Program-made: the position numbers and the translations under genes | Part shown: positions 1,847 to 57,748 of the stretch, piece by piece | Numbering within the stretch: the stretch's first letter is position 1 | Layout: every line of letters begins with the position of its first letter | The notes under the pieces: generated by a model | Told to the model about the DNA's origin: nothing | Databases searched by the model: none | The model's input: only the letters and a program-made list of their open reading frames with translations | NCBI GenBank assembly: GCA_951406725.2 | Contig: OX597814.1 | Span: 183,830,001-183,894,000 of the forward strand | Direction: 5' to 3' | Length of the DNA: 64,000 nt | From: Octopus vulgaris | Lineage: Eukaryota

Positions 1847-3370
1847 TATGTTAATTTTTTTTATAAAATCAGAGTTCAAATCTTGACGAGGTTTGATTTT
1901 ATTTAAGATCCCTAGTCTGTTTCATTAATGTCAGTAACATGCTGCGAGAAAGATGGTCACACAGTGAGTAAAGCTTACGATTGATTTTAGATTTGATTTG
2001 AAGCCATTCCCGTCACTGCATATAAATATATTTAACTGTATCAAAGGATTATGTTAAAAAGCGGACTTAAGCGCCAAATAGCAACTCCTTATATGCAGAA
2101 TGATTTAGGATACGTACTATTTGAGTTCCTACTCAGAAGCATATATTCGCTGATGACGAGTGCCCATGACCTACATGCTAAAAAGGTGTCGAAATTTCCA
2201 TGTGTAAGCATTGTGTTTCCTGTTATCTACTTTAATATTCTATTTTCTCTCCGGAAAGCTTGGTATATATTCCCTAGGAAAACATGGTTCATAGAAAATT
2301 GAACGACCATAATAAGGGAAAAGGGAAAAAATTGACAAGTCAGTCAGTCGCCGGCTGACACTCGTTGACGCCACACCGAAGAAGCCAGGGAACAGAAGAA
2401 AGAAGACATGCACTCAACACCAGAGCTGGACACCTCCGAAAGGGGGGGGGGGGCGCCACTTTAAACGGTAGAGGAGTAGGGGCCGGAACCGGACGTGGTT
2501 CCTCCTGATGATGTTTCGAGCTAACTGGATCCTATAAAGGAGCTGTTGTGGTAGCAGACCACGAAACACGGTTGTAATTCCTCAGTTTGAGAAAGTGAGA
2601 GAGAATGGGGAAAACGAGAGGGTCAGGAGGGTCAGAGAGAAGAAACGGAGTGAGAGGAAGACAGAGATAGAGTAAGAGAAGAAAATTCAGTGCCTTGAAT
2701 ATGTTAATTAGTGAGATGTTAGACTGTGGTATATATTGGTTAGTTCTGATAGTTTTATCGGAACACGTCATAAATAATCTGTAAAGCTATCAGTCAAGCA
2801 GCCATAGCTCCGATATATTTTCCGTTTCGATTTCCGATTGCAATGATTTTCCTGCACATAAGCCACAAAAGCCACTGGGAATGACAGCAACAACCCGATA
2901 TAACGTTTACACTGCCGTCCAAATCTTAAGTATAATGAATGGCTCCGATAAATCAATATGAATGCCTTTAGGGGAGTGCGTAGACAGCATGCAAGCGCAA
3001 TGAACCTCTTCAAATAAACCGCGAATTTGAATGTAATCAAGACAAATGAACAGGATAGCATATAAGCAAAACAGATCAAAAGTGTTATTTGTTCAAGAAA
3101 GCCTGTAGACCTGTCTGTTTATTTTCCAAAAATGACTGACCGTAAACAAATTTAAGACCCGAATTGGAATAATTTTCAATCTTTGATGCTGCTGCTATCT
3201 CATATACAGCCTAGATTGTATTCTACAAAAGAAGTCAAAATAAACTGATTAGCATGAAGCTGTTCACCACTCTAAGAGATAGACATGCCATCTTCTCACT
3301 CTATCAACTGCTATCACACTGGCCAGTGTTTTTTAGAGCTATCTGCACTCATGCTATCTCTACGCAAACC

Positions 3371-3777
3371 TATTTCTTTACTACCCACAAGGGGCTAAGT
3401 ACAGAGAGGACAAATAAGGACAGACAAACGGATTAAGTCGATTATATCGACCCCAGTGCATAACTGGTATTTATTTAATAGACCCAGAAAGGATGAAAGG
3501 CAAAGTCGACCTCGGCGGAATTTGAACTCAGAACGTAACGGTAAACGAAATACCTATTTCTTTACTACCCACAAGGGGCTAAAAACAGGGGACAAACAAA
3601 GACAGACGCACGGATTGAGTCGATTACATCGACCCCAATGCGTAATTGGTACTTAATTTATCGACCCCGAAAGGATGAAAGGCAAAGTCGACCTCGGCGG
3701 AATTTGAACTCAGAACGTAGGGGCAAACGAAATACCGCTAAGCATTTCGCCCGGCGTGCTAACGTTTCTGCCAGCTC
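3371..3777 (-). mobile_element. SINE family B, head plus two tandem body units, 13-bp TSD
   Basis: Two ~180-bp units containing GAGTTCAAATTCC and GCCTTTCATCCTTTCGGGGTCGAT; flanked by CTCTACGCAAACC at 3358-3370 and 3775-3787. Confidence 0.9.
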
Positions 3778-4346: not shown

Positions 4347-4945
4347 GGCGGCGAGCTAGCAGAAACGTTAGCACGCCCGGCGAAATACCTAGCGGCATTT
4401 CGTCTGCCGTTACGTTCTGAGTTCAAATTCTGCCGAGGTCGACTTTGCCTTTTATCCTTTCGGGGTCGATTCAATAAGTACCAGTTACGCACTGGGGTCG
4501 ATGTAATCGACTTAATCCGTTTGTGTGTCCTTATTTGTCCTCTCTGTGTTTAGCTCCTTGTGGGTAGTAAAGAAATAGGTATTTCGTCTGCCCTTACATT
4601 CTGAGTTCAAATTCCGCCGGGATCGACTTTGCCTTTCATCCTTTCGGGGTCGATTAAATAAGTACCAGTTACGCACTGGGGTCGATGTAATCGACTTAAT
4701 CCGTTTGTGTGTCCTTATTTGTCCTCTCTGTGTTTAGCTCCTTGTGGGTAGTAAAGAAATAGGTATTTCGTCTGCCGTTACGTTCTGAGTTCAAATTCCA
4801 CCGAGGTCGACTTTGTCTTTCATCCTTTCGGGGTCGATAAATTAAGTACCAGTTACGCTCTGGGGTCGATGTAATCGACTTATTCCGTTTGTGTGTCCTT
4901 GTTTGTCCCCACTGTGTTTAGCCCCTTGTGGGTAGTAAAGAAATA
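4347..4945 (+). mobile_element. SINE family B, trimer
   Basis: Head GGCGGCGAGCTAGCAGAAACGTTAG, then three near-identical units each ending TGTGGGTAGTAAAGAAATA. Confidence 0.9.
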
Positions 4946-18175: not shown

Positions 18176-18319
18176 TTTCTTTATTGCCCACAGGGCGCTA
18201 AACATAGAGGAGACAAAAAAGGTCAGACAAAGGGTTTAAGTCGATTAGACCGACCCCAGTGCGTAACTGGTATTTATTTAATCGACCCCGAAAGGATGAA
18301 AGGCAAAGTCGACCTCGGC
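18176..18319 (-). mobile_element. SINE B, 5'-truncated; tail variant with GGGCAATAAAGAAA
   Basis: Homologous to the B unit. Confidence 0.85.
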
Positions 18320-21819: not shown

Positions 21820-22016
21820 ATACCTATTTCTTTACTACCCACAAGGGGCTAAAAACAGGGGACAAACAAAGACAGACGGACGGATTAAGTCGATTACATC
21901 GACCCCAATGCGTAATTGGTACTTAATTTATCGACTCCGAAAGGATGAAAGACAAAGTCGACCTCGGCGGAATTTGTAATCACAACATAAAGACGGACCA
22001 AATGCCGCTAAGCATT
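21820..22016 (-). mobile_element. SINE family B unit
   Basis: Nearly identical to 3550-3740. Confidence 0.88.
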
Positions 22017-29854: not shown

Positions 29855-30071
29855 ATCCCTCCCTCGCCATATCGTGGTTCACCTATCGCGGTTTATTATT
29901 TAAGCTTACGTCGATTCCTGTGTGGAGTTGTTCTGCATTTATAATAAAATAAATACATACAAATTATGTATGTATAAAAATATACAGTACAGTTCTGTTT
30001 GTACTTCGCGGATTTTCAGCTATCGCTGGGGTTTTGGCAGTGTAACACCCGCGATAGTCGAGGGATTACTG
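29850..30071. mobile_element. Pogo/Tigger-like MITE
   Basis: AGTAATCCCTC..CTATCGCGG pairs with CCGCGATAGTCGAGGGATTACTG|TA. Confidence 0.7.
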
Positions 30072-30147
30072 TACATATATATATATATATATATACATAT
30101 ATATATAAGCAATAATAAATAATAATAAATCGAAAACCGGTAATTGT

Positions 30148-30192
30148 CGTACGCTGATGACAAGTCAAATCCTAGAAACTGCAGTCCGTGCG
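30148..30192 (+). ncRNA. Minimal type-I hammerhead ribozyme motif (weakened stem II)
   Basis: CGTACG-CTGATGA-caagtcaaatccta-GAAA-CTGCAG-TC-CGTGCG: 6-bp stem I, intact core, palindromic stem III ACTGCAGT. Confidence 0.72.
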
Positions 30193-30350
30193 TACCACTT
30201 AGGTTGACGAGGGAAGGGTGACCTCCCTTTGCAAATACCATAAGGGTACAGAAAGTGTGCCTAAAGCCAGCTGGAGACGATGTTCTCCTGGGACTACAAG
30301 CTACAGTAACACCCACTTAGTGGTTAGCCATATTGAGATGGCAAGTATAC

Positions 30351-30458
<108 letters not shown>

Positions 30459-31327
30459 GAAAGAGAGAAAGAGAGCGAGAGAGAGAGATATGCAGTGTAA
30501 GTGTGTGGGGATGTCCACAATACGCTGTTGATAAGGATATCTGCGGGAATTTTATTATATTTTTGGGAAGTTCTATAGGTACTGCTGAAACAGTGCCATT
30601 TGGTAGTTTAATCTAGGGAGCACCTTTTCAAGCGATACATACCAGAACATTTGAAGTCATCATTGGCAACGGAGCATGTCACTACGCCTAGATATTACGG
30701 ATATACACAAAGCACGGATATACACAAGCACATATACACACACGCCTACACGCTCGTACGTACACACACACGCAAGCATACGAACATAAACCTGAATTTT
30801 TCTCTTATGTTCAAAGCTTTACTCTGTCCCACTCACACATTAATTTCTATTGACGAGTAATAATTTCTAAACGGTGATATATATATGAAAGTAGAATAGT
30901 GTGAAATATTGTGACGACTTCCTTGGTGATGCCTCCTCTTCGCATCATTCCACGGCAGATTATATACATTCTCGCGTAAATACACATTAAAAGACTGATC
31001 TGTATATCATAAGACGGATTGATATCAATCAATGACTTCCTTCCGGTAGTTCCTGTAGTCAGACTGGTGCCAGACGTATGAACCTGCAGCTCTAACTACC
31101 CATGGAATTAGTGTCTGACGCCTGGAAAACATAGGATCTCCGCGAAATAAAGATTAAATTTTTCCTGTGCTTTCGGTGTGTTGTAGAGCTGTGCCTATTT
31201 ATAAATATAAATACTTACGTATGTACGTACACACACACGCTCACACACAGAGGCTCACACGCACACGTGTATATATATATATGAAGAGTTGCAGAGAAGA
31301 AGGGTGAAAGAAAGAGTTAAACACATA

Positions 31328-31401
<74 letters not shown>
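31328..31401. repeat. (TATC)n tract 5' of the LINE array
   Basis: Directly visible. Confidence 0.95.
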
Positions 31402-31402
<1 letters not shown>

Positions 31403-32480
31403 TGGCACCGCGAGTGTCGCGTTGCTCTCAAGCAACTCTGCCGTCCTGGGTCGACCTTAAGTGACTTCAACACAACCAAAGCATTCTATAGGGGTTTAGT
31501 GGAGGGGAGGTACGACGACGAGCTCGGGGCGAACCTGGACGTCGACGAGGAGTACCTGACCCGCCTGTTCAGGACGACTTTCGGGCCAGGGCCCATGGAC
31601 AACTTCCAGAGATCCCTGGCCTGGCAGTGCTACCGAGAAGCGCTACCCGTTCGGGATAAGCTCTACAGACACGGCTCGAGAAACACGGGGCCGACCTGCC
31701 CGAGATGCGGTCAGAGCGACGAAACCGTTCTGCACGCACTCGTTCAGTGTCCAACAATTTCCGACCTGTGGGCTTATGTCGAACAACTGCTGTCACGTGT
31801 GGGACGAGTCGGTTTATCAGCTGAGTCTATCGTCAATATTGTCACGCCTCCTTCCTTCAAACGGGAAGGAAGAGCTATTTTCATCATCCTTGTGGCTATG
31901 GCGAAAGAATGTATCTGGTGGACGCGTCTGAAAGGATTGGAGACAAACACTTTCCTCTCTGGTCAATCTCTCATCAACTTCTTCAAGTACCACTTGAAAA
32001 GGAAAGTGAGAGTAGAGAGGCAAGTTTTGTCTAGCGAATGTTTTAAAAAAAGATGGGTGAATGTAGCAAGAATGGCACGTATGAATGACGAAGCCACCTT
32101 GAGCATAGTCCTATGAACCCAGAAATCGAAAACAGAGAGTTGCTTATTTGCAAAAAAAAAAAAAAAAGAAATATAAAATGTGACATCATTGACCGAGGTT
32201 ACCGTGGTCTTTTCCGTAGGCTTTTCTTTGCACGGGTAAACCTCACCTGTCCTCCCCTTTACACTTCATATTGACATTTCTGTGATAACGATCCCTATTG
32301 ATCAATTTTTTTTCCTCCCCCCTTTTTTTTGTCCTCTTTCTCTCCTTTTACGATCCCTTTTGATCGAAACTCCCCTTCCTTTTTTTTTTTTTTTTTTTTT
32401 TTTCTTAAACCTTCAAAAGAAAAGCTCTACCTTGTAATTTGTTCTATCTGTGTGCAGCCCTGTGTGGCTAATAAAGAAAC
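31402..32480 (+). mobile_element. Tx1/L1-clade LINE copy 1 (5'-truncated; ORF2 C-terminus open to the stop at 32116)
   Basis: Zinc finger CPRCGQSDETVLHALVQC; T-rich 3' UTR ending AATAAAGAAAC followed by (TATC)n. Confidence 0.88.
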
Positions 32481-32481
32481 A

Positions 32482-32561
<80 letters not shown>

Positions 32562-32576
32562 AATCTACCTACATAC

Positions 32577-32634
<58 letters not shown>

Positions 32635-33246
32635 GAAGGAAGAGCTATTTTTATCATACTTGTGGCTATGGCGAAAGAATGTATCTGGTGGACGCGTCTG
32701 AAAGGATTAGAGACAAACACTTTCCTCTCTGGTCAATCTCTCATCAACTTCTTCAAGTATCACTTGAAGAAGAAAGTGAGAGTAGAGAGGCAAGTTTTGT
32801 CTAGTGAATGTTTTAAAAAAAGATGGCACGTATGAATGACGAAGCCACCTTGACTATGATTCTATGAACCGTAAAAATTAATACAGAGAGTTGCTTATTT
32901 GCAAAAAAAAAAAAAAAAGAAATATAACATGTTACTTCATTGACCGAGGTTACCGTGGTCTTTTCCGTAGGCTTTTCTTTCCACGGGTAAACCTCACCTG
33001 TCCTCCCCTTTACACTTCATATTGACATTTCTGTGATAACGATCCCTATTGATCAATTTTTTTCCTCTCCCCCTTTTTTTATAACCCCCCTTTTTTTGTC
33101 CTCTTTCTCTCCTTTTACGATCCCTTTTGATCGACCCCCCCTTTTTTTTTATTTAAAAAAAAAATTTTTTTTTTACCTTCAAAAGAAAAGCTCTACCTTG
33201 TAATTTGTTCTATCTGTGTGCAGCCCTGTGTGGCTAATAAAGAAAC
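32635..33246 (+). mobile_element. Tx1/L1-clade LINE copy 2 (shortest)
   Basis: Homologous to 31865-32480; small deletion between two ATGG microhomologies near 32823; same 3' end. Confidence 0.88.
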
Positions 33247-33247
33247 A

Positions 33248-33305
<58 letters not shown>

Positions 33306-33314
33306 CATATTTAC

Positions 33315-33364
<50 letters not shown>

Positions 33365-33524
33365 GTCTATCTGTCTATCTATCTATCTATCTACCTACAT
33401 ACCTACCTATCTATCTATCTATCTATCTATCTGTCTATCTATCTATCTATATATATATATCTATCTATCTATCTATCTATCTATCTACCTACCTACATAC
33501 CTACCTACCTACCTACCTATCTAC

Positions 33525-33581
<57 letters not shown>

Positions 33582-33582
<1 letters not shown>

Positions 33583-35020
33583 CATCACCAAACTACAACG
33601 CATTCTCTTTCGCTTCTTGTGGAAAGGATGCGTCCCGATGGTCAGGCGATCCATTTGCTGTCAACACCCGTTAAAAGGAGGACTGGGCATGCCGTGGTTG
33701 ATGATGCGCAGACACGCGCTGAGACTGCGACATCTCAGGCTCTTCGTAGACGACGGTGAACAGGTGTGGTCGCCGTTTGTGAGGCACGCTTCCCGCAGCT
33801 CGTCTCCATGACCGAACTGCAGTCGTGGATCAAAAAGAGGCCGAGGAAGAGCGAATGGCACCGCGAGTGTCGCGTTGCTCTCAAGCAACTCTGCCGTCCT
33901 GGGTCGACCTTGAGTGACTTCAACACAACCAAAGCATTCTATAGGGGATTAGTGAAGGGGAGGTACGACGAGCTCGGGGCGAACCTGGACGTCGACGAGG
34001 AGTACCTGACCTGCCTGTTCAGGACGACTTTCGGGCCAGGGCCCATGGACAACTTCCAGAGATCCCTGGCCTGGCAGTGCTACCGAGAAGCGCTTCCCGT
34101 TCGGGATAAGCTCTACAGACACGGCTCGAGAAACACGGGGCCGACCTGCCCGAGATGCGGTCAGAGCGACGAAACCGTTCTGCACGCACTCGTGCAGTGT
34201 CCAACAATTTCCGACCTGTGGGCTTATGTCGAACAACTGCTGTCACGTGTGGGACGAGTCGGTTTATCAGCTGAGTCTATCGTCAATATTGTCACGCCTC
34301 CTTCCTTCAAACGGGAAGAAAGAGCTATTTTCATCATCCTTGTGGCTATGGCGAAAGAATGTATCTGGTGGACGCGTCTGAAAGGATTGGAGACAAACAC
34401 TTTCCTCTCTGGTCAATCTCTCATCAACTTCTTCAAGTACCACTTGAAAAGGAAAGTGAGAGTAGAGAGGCAAGTTTTGTCTAGCGAATGTTTAAAAAAA
34501 AGATAGGTGAATGTAGCAAGGATGGCACGTATGATTGACGAAGCCACCTTGAGCATAATCCTATGAACCCAGAAATTTAAAACAGAGGGTTACCCACTTG
34601 CAAACAAATGTGGTAACATATAACAATATTGACCAAGGTTACCGTGGTCTTTTTCGTAGGCTTTTCTTCCCACGGATAAACCTTACTTGCTTTCCCCTTT
34701 ACACCATATATCATAACACTGTGATACACGATCCCTATTGATCGTTTTTTTCCTCTTTCCCTTTTTTCCCCTTTTTCTTCTTTTTTCATTTCTCTTTTCT
34801 TTTGTTCCTTTTCCTTTTCTTTTTTTCTTTTTCTTTTTTTCTTTTTTCTTTTATTTATTTTTTTTGTTCTTTTCTTCCCTTTTACGATCCCTCTTGATCG
34901 AAAACCTACGCCACCCTCTTTTTTTTCTTTTGTTTTTTGTTTTTTTCATCCCCCAAAAGAAAAGCTCTACCTTGTAACTTGTCCCATCTGTGTGCAGCCC
35001 TGTGTGGCCAATAAAGAAAC
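33582..35020 (+). mobile_element. Tx1/L1-clade LINE copy 3 (longest; frameshift near 33790, TGG>TAG at 34504)
   Basis: [17 protein letters not shown] motif plus the same zinc finger; ends AATAAAGAAAC followed by (TATC)n. Confidence 0.88.
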
Positions 35021-35081
<61 letters not shown>

Positions 35082-35088
35082 AATCTAC

Positions 35089-35133
35089 CTTATGAGCCAG
35101 GCGTGACTCAAGAAGGAACAAACAAAACAACAA
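35089..35133 (+). mobile_element. Isolated SINE C tail
   Basis: CTTATGAGCCAGGCGTGACTCAAGAAGGAACAAACAA matches 24511-24548. Confidence 0.7.
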
Positions 35134-35437
35134 TTTTAGGCACTTATTGACATTGCCTTCAGCACAGAATGCGTTCGAGTGTGCAACACCTTCGCGCTGA
35201 ATTCGTATTCAAGCATTTTTAATGTTTTCAATCAATTTTGGTCCCATGTATTTATGCTCATTTAGTTTATTGGAAACAGAGAATTGAGTGGCTGTGGTTG
35301 ATTTGAAAACTGTGACTACTTAACTGACGTTTCAACTCCATACAATTATCGTGGTGACTAGAGTGACTGCATTTTGTAATTCACATGCAAATAATAATCT
35401 AGCGAATTGAGAGTGACATCTCTACTGTAGATTAATA

Positions 35438-35650
35438 TTTTCTACTATAGGTACAAGGCCTGAAAGTTTGGGAGAAGGAGGCCAGTCGATTAGATCGACC
35501 CCAGTACGTAATTGGTACTTAATTTATCAACCCCGAAAGGATGAAGGACAAAGTCGATCCCGGTGGAATTTCAACTCAGAGCGTAGCGACAGGCGAAATA
35601 CCGCTTAGCATTTCGCCCAGCGTGCTAACGATTCTGCCAGCTCGCCGCCT
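35438..35650 (-). mobile_element. SINE B, short-tail subtype
   Basis: Full head; imperfect TSD TACTG(T/C)AGATTAAT. Confidence 0.88.
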
Positions 35651-36295
35651 TATCTGTACTGCAGATTAATTACTCAGGGTGCGTGTAGTACTGCGTTTTT
35701 CTTTAGGCCTTCTTTTAATTTCTCAACGCCATTGGTAAGTCAATTACAAGCTGTATATTTACATAGCAAGTGTATATTATATATCTATGCTCGGATGTTA
35801 TTTTGTTTCTGATTGTCTCCATCTCTGTGTTTAAATTGATTGTCTTTTTGGCAGCGAAAGTTACACTAAAGTGACACTATTTCTAGAAGTAAAGAGTCAC
35901 GTTGAAAACAATGGATACATCACACTAGATACAGACAAACGCAGGTGTCTAAATGGAGAAAGCGAATCCCCACAAACCCACATAATACCTATAATAACCT
36001 CGACTCATAACAGCCGGCTGATCTTAGGCGATCTGTGCTCCGGCAATCCCTACTCGCTCGACTCCTCCTTTTTTCATACTAATTATGTGTATTAAACCCT
36101 GCCAAGCTTTGTAGAAACTCACTAAAAAGCTGTAAACTCCTCCTTAATTACATCTTTCCTGCAAGTGTAAACTTACACTAGTTTAAGCGGAACATTAACG
36201 GCATCGGCATCATCCGTCTCAGAGGACTTTCCAGCAAAAGAAAATGAACACAAAATAGAGGCATGAAACTCGAATATATACAGGAGTACCCATAC

Positions 36296-36525
36296 GGCGG
36301 CGAGCTGGCAGAAACGTTAGCACGCCAGGCGAAATGCGTAGCCGTATTTCGTCTGTCGTTACGTTCTGAGTTCAAATTCCGCCGAGGTCGACTTTGCTTT
36401 TCATCCTTTCGGGGTCGATAAATTAAGTACCAGTTACGCACTGGAGTCGATGTAATCGACTTAATCCCTTTGTTTGTCCTTGTTTGTCCCCTCTGTGTTT
36501 AGTCCCTTGTGGGTAGTAAAGAAAT
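36296..36525 (+). mobile_element. SINE B monomer with 21-bp TSD
   Basis: ATATATACAGGAGTACCCATA at 36274-36294 and 36526-36546. Confidence 0.92.
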
Positions 36526-37392
36526 ATATATACAGGAGTACCCATATACCACACAGGTATTGGAAACTAAACAGTTTGAAACCTTCGTTTAATTAGAAAA
36601 CAGAAAGCGTGTAGAATTTCTTTGAAATGCCTTTTATAGTTTAAATGAATACCGCTACCATTTTTCGCCCATAAACTGTTGCGCGTGTTAGCTATTATTT
36701 TCAACGTGTTCTAGCTTCTGAATATGACAACCCTACTTTTTCGGGACGGTATATGCAACGAGTTCAGTTGAACGTGGTTCTGTGTATCGGGTCAGGTGAC
36801 GAATAACGAGAAAAACCAACTGACCCGTTTAATAAGATTGGTCTGAGATTGGATTTGATACGCTTATTATTACTTCAATAGTGCTTAAGTGCCTTGGAGG
36901 TAAATCTAAGTCAGATTATTTAATTGTATGTGGGCGTTTGGATATACATAAGCTTGAGGGTAAAGAAACCGTTACGACAGGAAAAAAAACAGCCGCAATG
37001 GAAGCATTAGCGGAAACAGTAGTAAAAGCAAAAACAGAGTGTGCGGCGTAGCAGTGATTGTCAGGTTTCACCTGCGGTGATCAATTGAGAGAGGTCGAGG
37101 AAGAAACTGTGTTGAACAAGCTAAATGGCGTCCAAAGATATTCTGATTTTACGCTCTGTTGGTAATTCTTCATTTAGCGCCGAAACCGTCTTGCTCGCTC
37201 TCGTTACTTCTCAGTTTTGCTTCTCCACTTGCCTCTCTTTCTCATTCGCTGGCTCGGTTTGTCTGTCTTTCTTTTCTGGTATATAATAATATACATTCAC
37301 TAAGTCGCACATATATGAGAAATATTACATGTATATATGCTTGTATGTGTGTATACATAAACACACACATATACACATACACATAACTGTAC

Positions 37393-39564: not shown

Positions 39565-39963
39565 TTTTTCCTACTTTAGGCACAAGGCCTGAAATTTTGG
39601 GTTAGGGGGACAGTCGATTAGATCGACCCCAGTACGCAACTGGTACTTAATTTATCCACCCCGCGAAAGGATGAAAGGCAAAATCGACCACGGCGGAATT
39701 TGAACTCAGAAAGTAACGACAGACGAAATACCTATTTCTTTACTACCCAGAAGGGGCTAAACACAGAGGGGACAAACAAGGACAGACAGACGGATTAAGT
39801 CGATTACATCTACCCCAGTGCATAACTGGTACTTAATTTATCCACCCCGCGAAAGGATGAAAGGCAAAGTCGACCTCAGCGGAATTTGAACTCACAACGT
39901 AACGGCAGACGAAATACCGCTAAGCATTTCGCCCGGTGTGCTAACGTTCCAACCAGCTCGCCG
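39565..39963 (-). mobile_element. SINE B heterodimer (long-tail unit then short-tail unit)
   Basis: Same architecture as 48885-49281. Confidence 0.88.
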
Positions 39964-48884: not shown

Positions 48885-49281
48885 GGCGGCGAGCTGGCAG
48901 AAACGTTAGTGCGCCGGACAAAATGCTTAGCAGTATTTCGTCTGCCACAACGTTCTCAGTTCAAATTCCGCCGAGGTCGACTTTGCCTTTCATCCTTTCG
49001 GGGGTCGATAAATTAAGTACCAGTTACGCACTGGGGTCGATATAATCGATTTAATCCGTATGTCTGTCCTTGTTTGTCCCCTCTGTGTTTAGCCCCTTGT
49101 GGGTAGTAAAGAAATAGGTATTTCGTCTGCCGCTACGTTCTGTATTCAACTTCCGCCGAGGTCGACTTTGCCTTTCATCCTTTCGGAGTCGATAATTTAA
49201 GTACTTGCTGCGTACTGGGGTCGACGTAATCAACTGGGCCCCTCCCCCAAATTTTCGGGCCTTGTGCCTAGAGTAGAAAAG
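48885..49281 (+). mobile_element. SINE B heterodimer
   Basis: Head, long-tail unit, GAAATAGGTATTTCG junction, short-tail unit. Confidence 0.9.
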
Positions 49282-49510: not shown

Positions 49511-49751
49511 TGTCTGTCCATGTTTGTCCTCTCTGTGTTTAGCCCCTTGTGGGTAGTAAAGAAATAGGTATTTCGTCTGTTTTTACGTTCTGAGTTCAAA
49601 TTCCGCCGAGGTAGACTTTGCCTTTCATCCTTTCGGAGTCGATAAATTAAGTACCAGCTACGTACTGGGGTCGATGTAATCAACTGGCCCCCTCCCCCAA
49701 ATTTCGGGCCTTGTGCCTAGAGTAGAAAAGAGTATTACAAGACCTCGGTTT
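49511..49751 (+). repeat. Local duplicate of 49061-49301 (SINE B 3' part plus flank)
   Basis: Both copies end AGTATTACAAGACCTCGGTTT. Confidence 0.85.
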
Positions 49752-56489: not shown

Positions 56490-57748
56490 CCAACTCGCAG
56501 CATGGATTTCTACCCCGAAGATCTTGCCTAACAAATATTCTCCTTCTTGAAGAGTGGATTACAAGGACCATGGATGAAAAAGACACGGAGGACGTTGTAT
56601 TTTTGGACTTTGCAAAGGCGTTTGACTCCGTTAATCACCAATTTCCCTTGCGCAAACTTCAAGTAAGCAAGATTCATCCATTGGTTACTTCGTGGATTTC
56701 TTCCATCCTGTGCCATCGAACCTTTCGGGTGCAGATAAATGGAGATCTCTCCGCGCAGACGAATGCCTGCAGCGGCGTTCCCCAGGAGTCTGTGCTGGGG
56801 CCAATACTTTTCCTCCTCTATATCAACCACCGGCCAGATTTTCTTGATGGAAGTGTCCTCCTATTTGCAGACGACGTCAAACTTGTCTCGCCTAGGAATC
56901 AATACGACATGCTCCAATCGTCGCTGAACTAAGCTTGGAACTGAGCGGAAGTATGAAATCTCCCCTTGAACGCCTCAAAATGTAGCCATTTGCCAATAGG
57001 TTCACCTCCAAACTCTCTCTTGACTGTTGGCCTCAAACACCAACATCTTAAGATGGTCACTGAAGAAAAGCATCTCGGCATAATGATCGATACTTCTTTT
57101 AACCCAAAACGGCAGTGTATAGAGGTGGCGAACAAAGCCAGGAGGAATCTTTTCCTCATCCGCCGGTCCTTTGTCAACCTTTCAATGGACGTCTTTGGGC
57201 CTTTACACGTCACTCTATTTCGATCCTTCCTCGAAAATTGCATCCAGGCCTCAAACCCATATCTCCAGAAAGATATTCAGCACCTGGAACAGGTTCAGTA
57301 CTTGGCCACCCGAATGGTCGCAGGCTTGTCTAAGCTTACGTATGAGGAACGTCTCCAACAGCTGGCGTTACCCTCACTCGAACGTCAGAGGATACGGAGA
57401 GATCTCATCCTGGCTTTCAACATCTTCAACGAGAATGTAATCGTACCATTTGCAGAGTTTTTCACCTCTGCGCCGGATAGAGGTCATCGTGGGCATGTTC
57501 CCTCTCTATCCCCGACACTTTCGACTAAAAAGACGGAAGGCCGCACTCACCGTCCGTATCGCAGCCCCGTGGAACAAGCTACCACAATATGTCATCCAAC
57601 TGCCCACCACTCCCCTGTTCAAGGAGGCCCTGGACTACTGTGGTGACTATGTATAAAAACTGTATATAACAATAACTGTTTTTTTCTTTACATGGCTTAA
57701 GCACATTGTACTCTTCTCCTTCCAATAAATTTGATTTGATTTGATTTG
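56490..57748 (+). mobile_element. 5'-truncated CR1-type LINE (RT pseudogene) with (ATTTG)n tail
   Basis: QHGFLPRRSCLTN, FLDFAKAFDSV, SGVPQESVLGPILFLLYIN, LFADDVKL and PWNKLP; in-frame stops near 56930 and a frameshift near 57500. Confidence 0.93.

What the first reader, a model, noticed from the sequence alone, without database searches (positions are those of the whole stretch)
31328..35088. Three independently truncated Tx1-like LINEs stacked in one (TATC)n tract: candidate GATA-microsatellite-targeting retrotransposon
Seen: three same-orientation copies (31402-32480, 32635-33246, 33582-35020) with three different 5' truncation points. Each starts directly after (TATC)n and ends at the same AATAAAGAAAC followed by (TATC)n. 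Different 5' ends and a more diverged 3' UTR in copy 3 argue for separate insertions rather than one tandem duplication. Known: the GGLG motif plus C-terminal CCHC finger fits L1/Tx1 ORF2, and Tx1-clade families such as Kibi and Koshi target (TC)n and (TTC)n. Inference: this family targets (TATC)n/(GATA)n with strand specificity and rebuilds its own target, so arrays grow. I do not recall such a family being described in cephalopods.
Basis: partly seen in the sequence, partly recalled or inferred. Interest (0 to 1): 0.8.

Follow-up and report, generated by a model that had tools for sequence, protein, structure and literature searches.

The report
Octopus LINE that targets GATA repeats
Three separately truncated copies of an abundant jumping gene, likely from an octopus, sit head to tail inside one GATA microsatellite, and five more insertion edges in other sequencing runs touch the same repeat on the same strand, so the family likely homes to GATA repeats: a new target for a known kind of repeat-seeking retrotransposon.

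Summary
Observation confirmed. Three same-strand, differently 5'-truncated copies of one high-copy L1-group LINE (probably Tx1 clade) lie between four (TATC)n tracts, with no poly(A) tail. They are not a tandem duplication: copy 1 is closest to copy 3 in the ORF (2.4% different) but to copy 2 in the 3' UTR (4.3%).

Outside test: 5 of 13 listed 5'-side junction rows in public contigs run into TATC. They lie at five new positions, in three coded organisms, all on the same strand, against about 1.3% background. None of 9 3'-side rows does. Against strict targeting: 7 of 13 rows join other DNA, and only 23 of 56 rows were shown. So a strong preference is supported; strict specificity is not shown.

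A shared AATCTACCT interruption in two tracts hints that part of the stack arose by unequal crossover or haplotype merging. Long reads were not available.

Microsatellite-targeting Tx1 families are known (Kibi, Koshi, crocodilian TTCC/TTTC). My searches found no TATC/GATA target in print. This scan noted the same thing before on other DNA (e1-9514738, e1-9510316). Verdict: new member of a known kind.

The parts
31328..31402 (+). Tract T0, (TATC)18 TAT; abuts the 5' end of copy 1
31403..32480 (+). Copy 1, 5'-truncated LINE: last 237 codons of ORF2 open to the stop at 32114-32116 (zinc finger CX2CX8HX4C), then 3' UTR
32195..32244 (+). Predicted 3' UTR stem-loop (12 pairs); one G-C to A-U change in copy 3; weak support
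   Evidence: z -0.4 to -1.2; 164 of 500 shuffles as good
32447..32480 (+). Terminal 33-34 nt, nearly identical in all copies (also 33213-33246 and 34987-35020); AATAAA, no poly(A); also shared with a SINE
32482..32634 (+). Tract T1, (TATC)20 AATC TACC TACA TACC (TATC)14 T
32635..33246 (+). Copy 2, shortest copy: ORF2 end with a 19-bp deletion near 32823, then 3' UTR like that of copy 1
33248..33582 (+). Tract T2, 334 bp, degenerate core (TACC, TACA, TGTC, TA units) between two pure (TATC)14 runs
33583..35020 (+). Copy 3, longest copy: ORF2 C-terminal part (GGLG, zinc finger), frameshift near 33789, early stop at 34504-34506; 3' UTR about 16% different from copies 1 and 2
35022..35090 (+). Tract T3, (TATC)15 AATC TACC T, then unique DNA

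Best explanation
These are three separate, 5'-truncated insertions of an abundant L1-group LINE family, probably of the Tx1 clade, that likely homes to (TATC)n/(GATA)n microsatellites in one fixed orientation. Inferred mechanism: target-primed reverse transcription. The element's APE endonuclease would nick the GATA strand. The RNA has no poly(A) tail and would end in, or read through into, UAUC units that pair with the nicked strand. Reverse transcription stops at variable points, and the new 5' end joins TATC, often after TATCT. Each insertion leaves TATC on both sides, so the site stays a target and copies stack head to tail. Shown: the anatomy, the separate origin of the copies, high copy number, and same-strand TATC at independent 5' junctions. 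Inferred: the nick, the priming, the cut phase and the order of events. The preference may not be exclusive.
For: (a) Six of six junctions in the window are TATC, same strand. (b) The copies are mosaics of different subfamilies, not duplicates. In the shared ORF part: c1-c3 2.4%, c1-c2 5.2%, c2-c3 6.0%. In the UTR: c1-c2 4.3%, c1-c3 15.8%, c2-c3 17.0%. Several of the differing bases are frequent variants in public contigs (e.g. 34389, 34440, 34635, 34654). (c) High copy number: 7,794-33,734 contigs per run were laid on copy 3; near-identical sequence is in runs of 4 coded organisms. (d) Independent 5' junctions. Of 14 listed 5'-side rows, 1 is an edge SNP. Of the other 13, 4 are pure TATC, 1 is degenerate TATC and 1 is a TA/TATC mix. 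The five TATC rows lie at positions 31958, 31962, 31976, 31980 and 31994, in runs X1, X3 and X8 (organisms A, B, D), all on the sense strand. 0 of 9 3'-side rows are TATC or GATA. Binomial P for 5 of 13 is 5e-7 at 1.3% background and 3e-4 at 5%. This passes the >20% flank rule for target specificity in PMC4494074 (passage). (e) The nearest long relative, P0168, has APE, RT and zf-RVT domains; its cluster representative P0010 is 68% identical to the window ORF. (f) T1 and T2 carry interrupted cores, as expected of tracts older than the insertions (inference).
Against: 7 of 13 junction rows (14 contigs) join non-TATC DNA, and organism C gave 0 of 3. Only 23 of 56 rows were shown, chosen by the tool. 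The 5'-side versus 3'-side contrast is borderline (Fisher P 0.054). At 85% likeness, 0 of 12 listed 5'-side rows were TATC (24 of 2,921 rows shown; by eye mostly diverged variants). The cut-phase test is weak (P 0.03-0.34 depending on the junctions used), and copy 1 does not fit the TATCT phase. The endonuclease of this exact family was not recovered.
Confidence: 0.7

Rival explanations
1. TATC is mainly a tail (microsatellite seeding). The family inserts widely, and new copies only sometimes land in TATC because the tail RNA pairs with such tracts; there is no specific endonuclease.
For: 7 of 13 5'-side rows are non-TATC. All three 3' ends go straight into pure TATC runs of 14-20 units.
Against: Five independent 5' junctions in TATC, all on one strand, against about 1.3% background. 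T0 lies upstream of the first copy, and no element end precedes it. The non-TATC rows could be sister families with other targets or later breaks; this was not resolved.
Confidence: 0.15
2. Each copy inserted into this TATC tract, but on different alleles. The three-copy stack was then joined by unequal crossover inside the microsatellite, or by an assembler merging two haplotypes. This is compatible with targeting and changes only how the array grew.
For: TATCAATCTACC occurs only at 32558 and 35078 in the 64 kb, that is after copy 1 and after copy 3. TACCTACATACC occurs only in T1 and twice in T2. This fits an allele 'copy 1 + tract end' joined to an allele 'copy 2 + copy 3 + tract end'.
Against: AATC and TACC variant units also occur in other tracts of the window, so the match may be convergent or due to gene conversion. 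There is no read evidence either way.
Confidence: 0.25
3. The array is one insertion copied by local tandem duplication, or a pure assembly artefact.
For: The last 66 nt of copies 1 and 2 are identical. No listed public contig piece spans even the laid stretches.
Against: Three different 5' ends, 2-6% ORF and up to 17% UTR differences with conflicting nearest neighbours, and variants shared with many other genomic copies.
Confidence: 0.04

Closest known systems
Kibi (TC)n and Koshi (TTC)n of teleosts; crocodilian Tx1 families on (TTCC)n/(TTTC)n (PMC4494074 passages; PMC3812793 passages)
   Same: APE-type LINE of the L1 group that prefers a microsatellite. The target survives on both sides of the insertion.
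   Different: The target unit is TATC/GATA, whereas those units are pyrimidine-only on one strand. The host is likely an octopod mollusc, not a vertebrate.
Waldo (ACAY)n, MinoAg1 (AC)n and Dong (TAA)n (PMC3812793 passages); Togen (TG)n (PMC4640811 passage)
   Same: Non-LTR retrotransposons that insert into microsatellites.
   Different: Different repeat units and other clades (Togen is NeSL-related by the passage; placing Waldo and Mino in R1 and Dong in R4 is partly recalled).
L1-Tx1 families of Octopus vulgaris: 80 families, 13 recently active (PMC13282606 text parts 1-2 and supplement search)
   Same: Likely the same class in the same animal group; this family may be in that library.
   Different: The parts read report no target analysis; the supplement has no hit for TATC, GATA, microsatellite or target. 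The library itself (Zenodo) could not be read.
SINEU-3 and Tx1-Mar tandem insertions (PMC4494074 passage)
   Same: Head-to-tail stacks ascribed to sequential insertion at a preserved target.
   Different: The target there is a Mariner transposon.

Membership tests
APE-type LINE, L1 group | ORF2 with APE endonuclease, RT and C-terminal CCHC zinc finger | tested here: met
   zf-RVT in copy 1. Relative P0168 has Exo_endo_phos E 2e-12, RVT_1 and zf-RVT. A more distant full-length relative, P0009, is closest to human L1 ORF2p among solved structures (E 2e-73, versus R2 3e-25). EN and RT are absent from the window's truncated copies.
APE-type LINE, L1 group | Variable 5' truncation with a common 3' end | tested here: met
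Tx1 clade | RT phylogeny groups with Tx1L, Keno, Kibi and Koshi | not testable with these tools
   No named Tx1 reference came up, so no tree was built. The label rests on recall (ORF2 about 1,145 aa, no poly(A), a fish relative with ZCCHC3-type ORF1 domains).
Microsatellite-specific Tx1 families (Kibi/Koshi type) | More than 20% of flanks are the target repeat (rule in PMC4494074) | tested here: met
   5 of 13 listed outside 5' junction rows and 6 of 6 window junctions. The sample is small and selected by the tool (23 of 56 rows shown).
Microsatellite-specific Tx1 families (Kibi/Koshi type) | One orientation relative to the repeat strand | tested here: met
   5 of 5 outside TATC junctions match the window's orientation; (1/2)^5 = 0.03
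Microsatellite-specific Tx1 families (Kibi/Koshi type) | Fixed cut phase in the repeat | tested here: inconclusive
   7 of 8 junctions are compatible with a join after TATCT, but two are uninformative; P 0.03-0.34
Microsatellite-specific Tx1 families (Kibi/Koshi type) | Endonuclease cleaves the target repeat specifically | not testable with these tools
   Needs a bench assay. Precedent for TRAS1, R1Bm and Tx1L in PMC1919474 passages.
Kibi or Koshi proper | Target (TC)n or (TTC)n | tested here: not met
   The flanks are (TATC)n

The most novel reading that the evidence does not exclude
In octopods, Tx1-type elements choose their landing site largely through the few target-derived bases read through behind a shared 33-nt 3' terminal module, not only through the endonuclease. 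The same module ends the GATA-homing LINE (followed by TATC in 3 of 3 copies) and an abundant SINE (followed by TAGGT, its own landing site, in 8 of 11 copies; TATC in 0 of 11). Swapping the tail would then retarget the element. GATA arrays would be one state of an RNA-steered, switchable targeting system.
Probability: 0.15. Interest if true: 0.7.

Novelty: new member of a known kind. Interest (0 to 1): 0.36.

Why it matters
If confirmed, it adds TATC/GATA to the short list of microsatellites targeted by APE-type LINEs, and extends the habit to a cephalopod, where L1-Tx1 families are numerous and recently active but apparently not analysed for targets. It gives a natural pair for testing what sets target choice: a LINE and a SINE with the same 3' terminal module but different landing sites. 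In practice, GATA microsatellite markers in octopods may share flanks or carry large insertion alleles, and such stacks are hazards for assembly. The principle itself (repeat-targeting Tx1 LINEs that stack) is known, which limits the surprise.

Tried and rejected
No whole genome is held for this window, so no genome-wide junction tally was possible.

Searches for other loci with flanks failed: exact 3'-end pattern in viral contigs, 0; protein scans of metagenome contigs, 1 weak locus at 32% identity, not used; genome contigs, 0 twice; viral contigs, 0.

The first lay of contigs at 85% likeness was swamped by diverged variants (0 of 12 listed 5'-side rows TATC) and skipped 34762-35022, so other copies' 3' junctions were not seen. 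RNA: only guessed RNA runs hold the element, plus two small-share insect metatranscriptomes; none was laid, so no claim on expression.

No named Tx1 reference was found, so no tree was built. Rfam gave no match over 30000-37000. The 3' UTR stem-loop is not significant. A simple target-site duplication does not explain the repeated AATCTACCT, because the left copy is not adjacent to a 5' end. Single tandem duplication was rejected.

Paper searches listed no TATC/GATA-targeting LINE. Kojima and Fujiwara 2004, Repbase, the figure and supplement of PMC4494074 and the O. vulgaris library could not be read and may already list such a target. A search on microsatellite seeding was not run.

Full report
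Observation. The sequence, TRF, self-alignment and tract parsing confirm three + strand copies at 31403-32480, 32635-33246 and 33583-35020, set between four TATC tracts. Each 5' end follows a pure run of 14-18 TATC units. Each 3' end is AATAAAGAAAC, one base, then 14-20 pure units, with no poly(A). No other copy lies in the 64 kb. Outside the array, TATC/GATA tracts are 0.9-1.3% of the window.

What the element is. Copy 1 holds 237 open codons with a CX2CX8HX4C finger (zf-RVT, E 2.5e-8). Copy 3 adds the GGLG region but has a frameshift near 33789 and an early stop; copy 2 has a 19-bp deletion. Homologues are RT plus zf-RVT proteins at 59-70% identity, one from Argonauta hians, and a fragment sits in an Octopus bimaculoides gene model. 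The host is therefore likely an octopod (inference). A 1,111-aa relative, P0168, carries an APE endonuclease, RT and zinc finger. A more distant full-length relative matches human L1 ORF2p far better than R2. The L1 group is thus supported. The Tx1 label is likely but untested, since no named reference was retrieved. The family is abundant: near-identical sequence is in runs of four coded organisms, and 7,794-33,734 contigs per run lay on copy 3 (not a copy number).

Separate insertions. In the ORF stretch shared by all three, copy 1 is nearest copy 3 (2.4%, against 5.2% and 6.0% for the other pairs). In the UTR copy 1 is nearest copy 2 (4.3%, against 15.8% and 17.0%). Many of the differing bases are common variants across public contigs. 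A single duplication cannot give this pattern; different, recombining source subfamilies can (inference).

Test of targeting. No genome was held, so I laid public contigs of four runs, one per coded organism, on a 141-bp ORF stretch at 97% likeness. The tool showed 23 of 56 loose-end rows. Of 14 5'-side rows, one is an edge SNP and was dropped. Of the 13 left, 4 are pure TATC, 1 degenerate TATC, 1 a TA/TATC mix and 7 other DNA (14 contigs). The five TATC rows are at five positions not used by the window's copies, in organisms A, B and D, all on the sense strand; organism C gave 0 of 3. None of 9 3'-side rows is TATC or GATA. Five of 13 has binomial P 5e-7 at 1.3% background and 3e-4 at 5%; counted by contigs (5 of 20), 6e-6 and 3e-3. 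The 5' versus 3' contrast gives Fisher P 0.054. Identical TATC junctions collapse into one contig, which would bias against TATC (inference), but the rows shown are not a random draw. The seven non-TATC rows are probably not chance unless about 20-nt matches are accepted. They may be true off-target insertions, later breaks, or sister families with other targets; I could not tell which. The earlier lay at 85% showed 0 of 12 5'-side rows in TATC among 24 of 2,921 rows, by eye mostly diverged variants. Seven of eight junctions are compatible with a join after TATCT, but the phase test is weak (P 0.03-0.34). Result: strand-specific preference supported, exclusivity not shown.

How the stack grew. 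Sequential insertion at a preserved target is the default, with precedent in tandem SINEU-3 (PMC4494074 passage). But TATCAATCTACC occurs only after copy 1 and after copy 3, and TACCTACATACC only in T1 and T2. This fits two alleles of one old tract, each with its own insertions, joined by unequal crossover or merged by the assembler. Variant units are common in other tracts, so this is only a hint. That the element rebuilds its target is plausible, given pure runs on both sides of every copy within otherwise degenerate tracts, but it is untested.

Mechanism (inferred). Target-primed reverse transcription: an APE nick on the GATA strand, priming by a UAUC-ending or read-through RNA, variable truncation, and 5' joining to TATC. 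Endonuclease-set specificity has precedent in TRAS1, SART1, R1Bm and Tx1L (PMC1919474 passages). An internal comparison bears on it. Eleven SINE ends in the window match the LINE's last 33 nt at 25-27 positions, while the best other match is 21. None of the 11 is followed by TATC and 8 are followed by TAGGT. So the terminal module alone does not set the target; the endonuclease or the read-through bases must.

Comparison with the known. Tx1-clade families on (TC)n, (TTC)n, (TTCC)n and (TTTC)n are described (PMC4494074, passages). A review lists ACAY, AC, TC, TTC and TAA targets (PMC3812793, passages), and Togen targets (TG)n (PMC4640811, passages). O. vulgaris has 80 L1-Tx1 families, 13 recently active, with no target analysis in what I read (PMC13282606, parts 1-2 of 3 and a supplement search). 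PMC12988792 has no mention of Tx1 or microsatellites (word search). PMC9004415, PMC3747384 and PMC4758252 were seen as passages only. Eight searches (listings only) gave no GATA-targeting LINE. Kojima and Fujiwara 2004, Repbase, the figure and supplement of PMC4494074 and the O. vulgaris library were not readable and could hold such a record.

Earlier notes of this scan report the same arrangement on another piece of this genome and in another genome, the SINE-Tx1 tail link, and sister families with other targets. These are unchecked AI notes and are not counted as evidence.

Verdict. A real feature and a new member of a known kind: a likely GATA-homing LINE in an octopod. Confidence in the preference is 0.7; interest 0.36.

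Noticed in passing
window 3368-3733 (-), 4397-4945 (+), 18176-18319 (-), 21822-22003 (-), 36346-36526 (+), 39612-39915 (-), 48935-49235 (+), 49511-49685 (+): An abundant SINE-like repeat, unit about 184 bp, whose last 33 nt match the LINE's last 33 nt at 25-27 positions (11 ends; best background 21). 8 of 11 ends are followed by TAGGT, and units stack in tandem at one site of the same SINE; none is followed by TATC. Likely a passenger of a sister Tx1-type LINE.
   Followed up: partly
window 32558-32577, 33392, 33490, 35078-35090: Interruption motifs shared between tracts (AATCTACC in T1 and T3; TACCTACATACC in T1 and twice in T2): possible unequal crossover, gene conversion or haplotype merging.
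   Followed up: partly
window 32117-32480, 32868-33246, 34567-35020: The 3' UTR keeps two short GATC-loop-GATC hairpins and a longer stem with one compensatory change, while the pyrimidine tracts between them vary freely. Only one short hairpin folds better than shuffles (z -4.1).
   Followed up: partly
window 31403-32480: Copy 1 is a mosaic: ORF like copy 3, UTR like copy 2, which suggests UTR exchange between subfamilies.
   Followed up: partly
window 56498-56929 (+): Decayed RT fragment of an unrelated LINE (26% to P0003), next to an ACC-rich tract.
   Followed up: no
proteins P0113, P0220-P0253: Distant fish relatives with ZCCHC3-type ORF1 domains have neighbouring locus tags in several genomes, hinting at tandem arrays there too.
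   Followed up: no
protein P0005: A 63%-identical relative is filed under a Herbaspirillum metagenome-assembled genome, likely animal DNA contamination.
   Followed up: no
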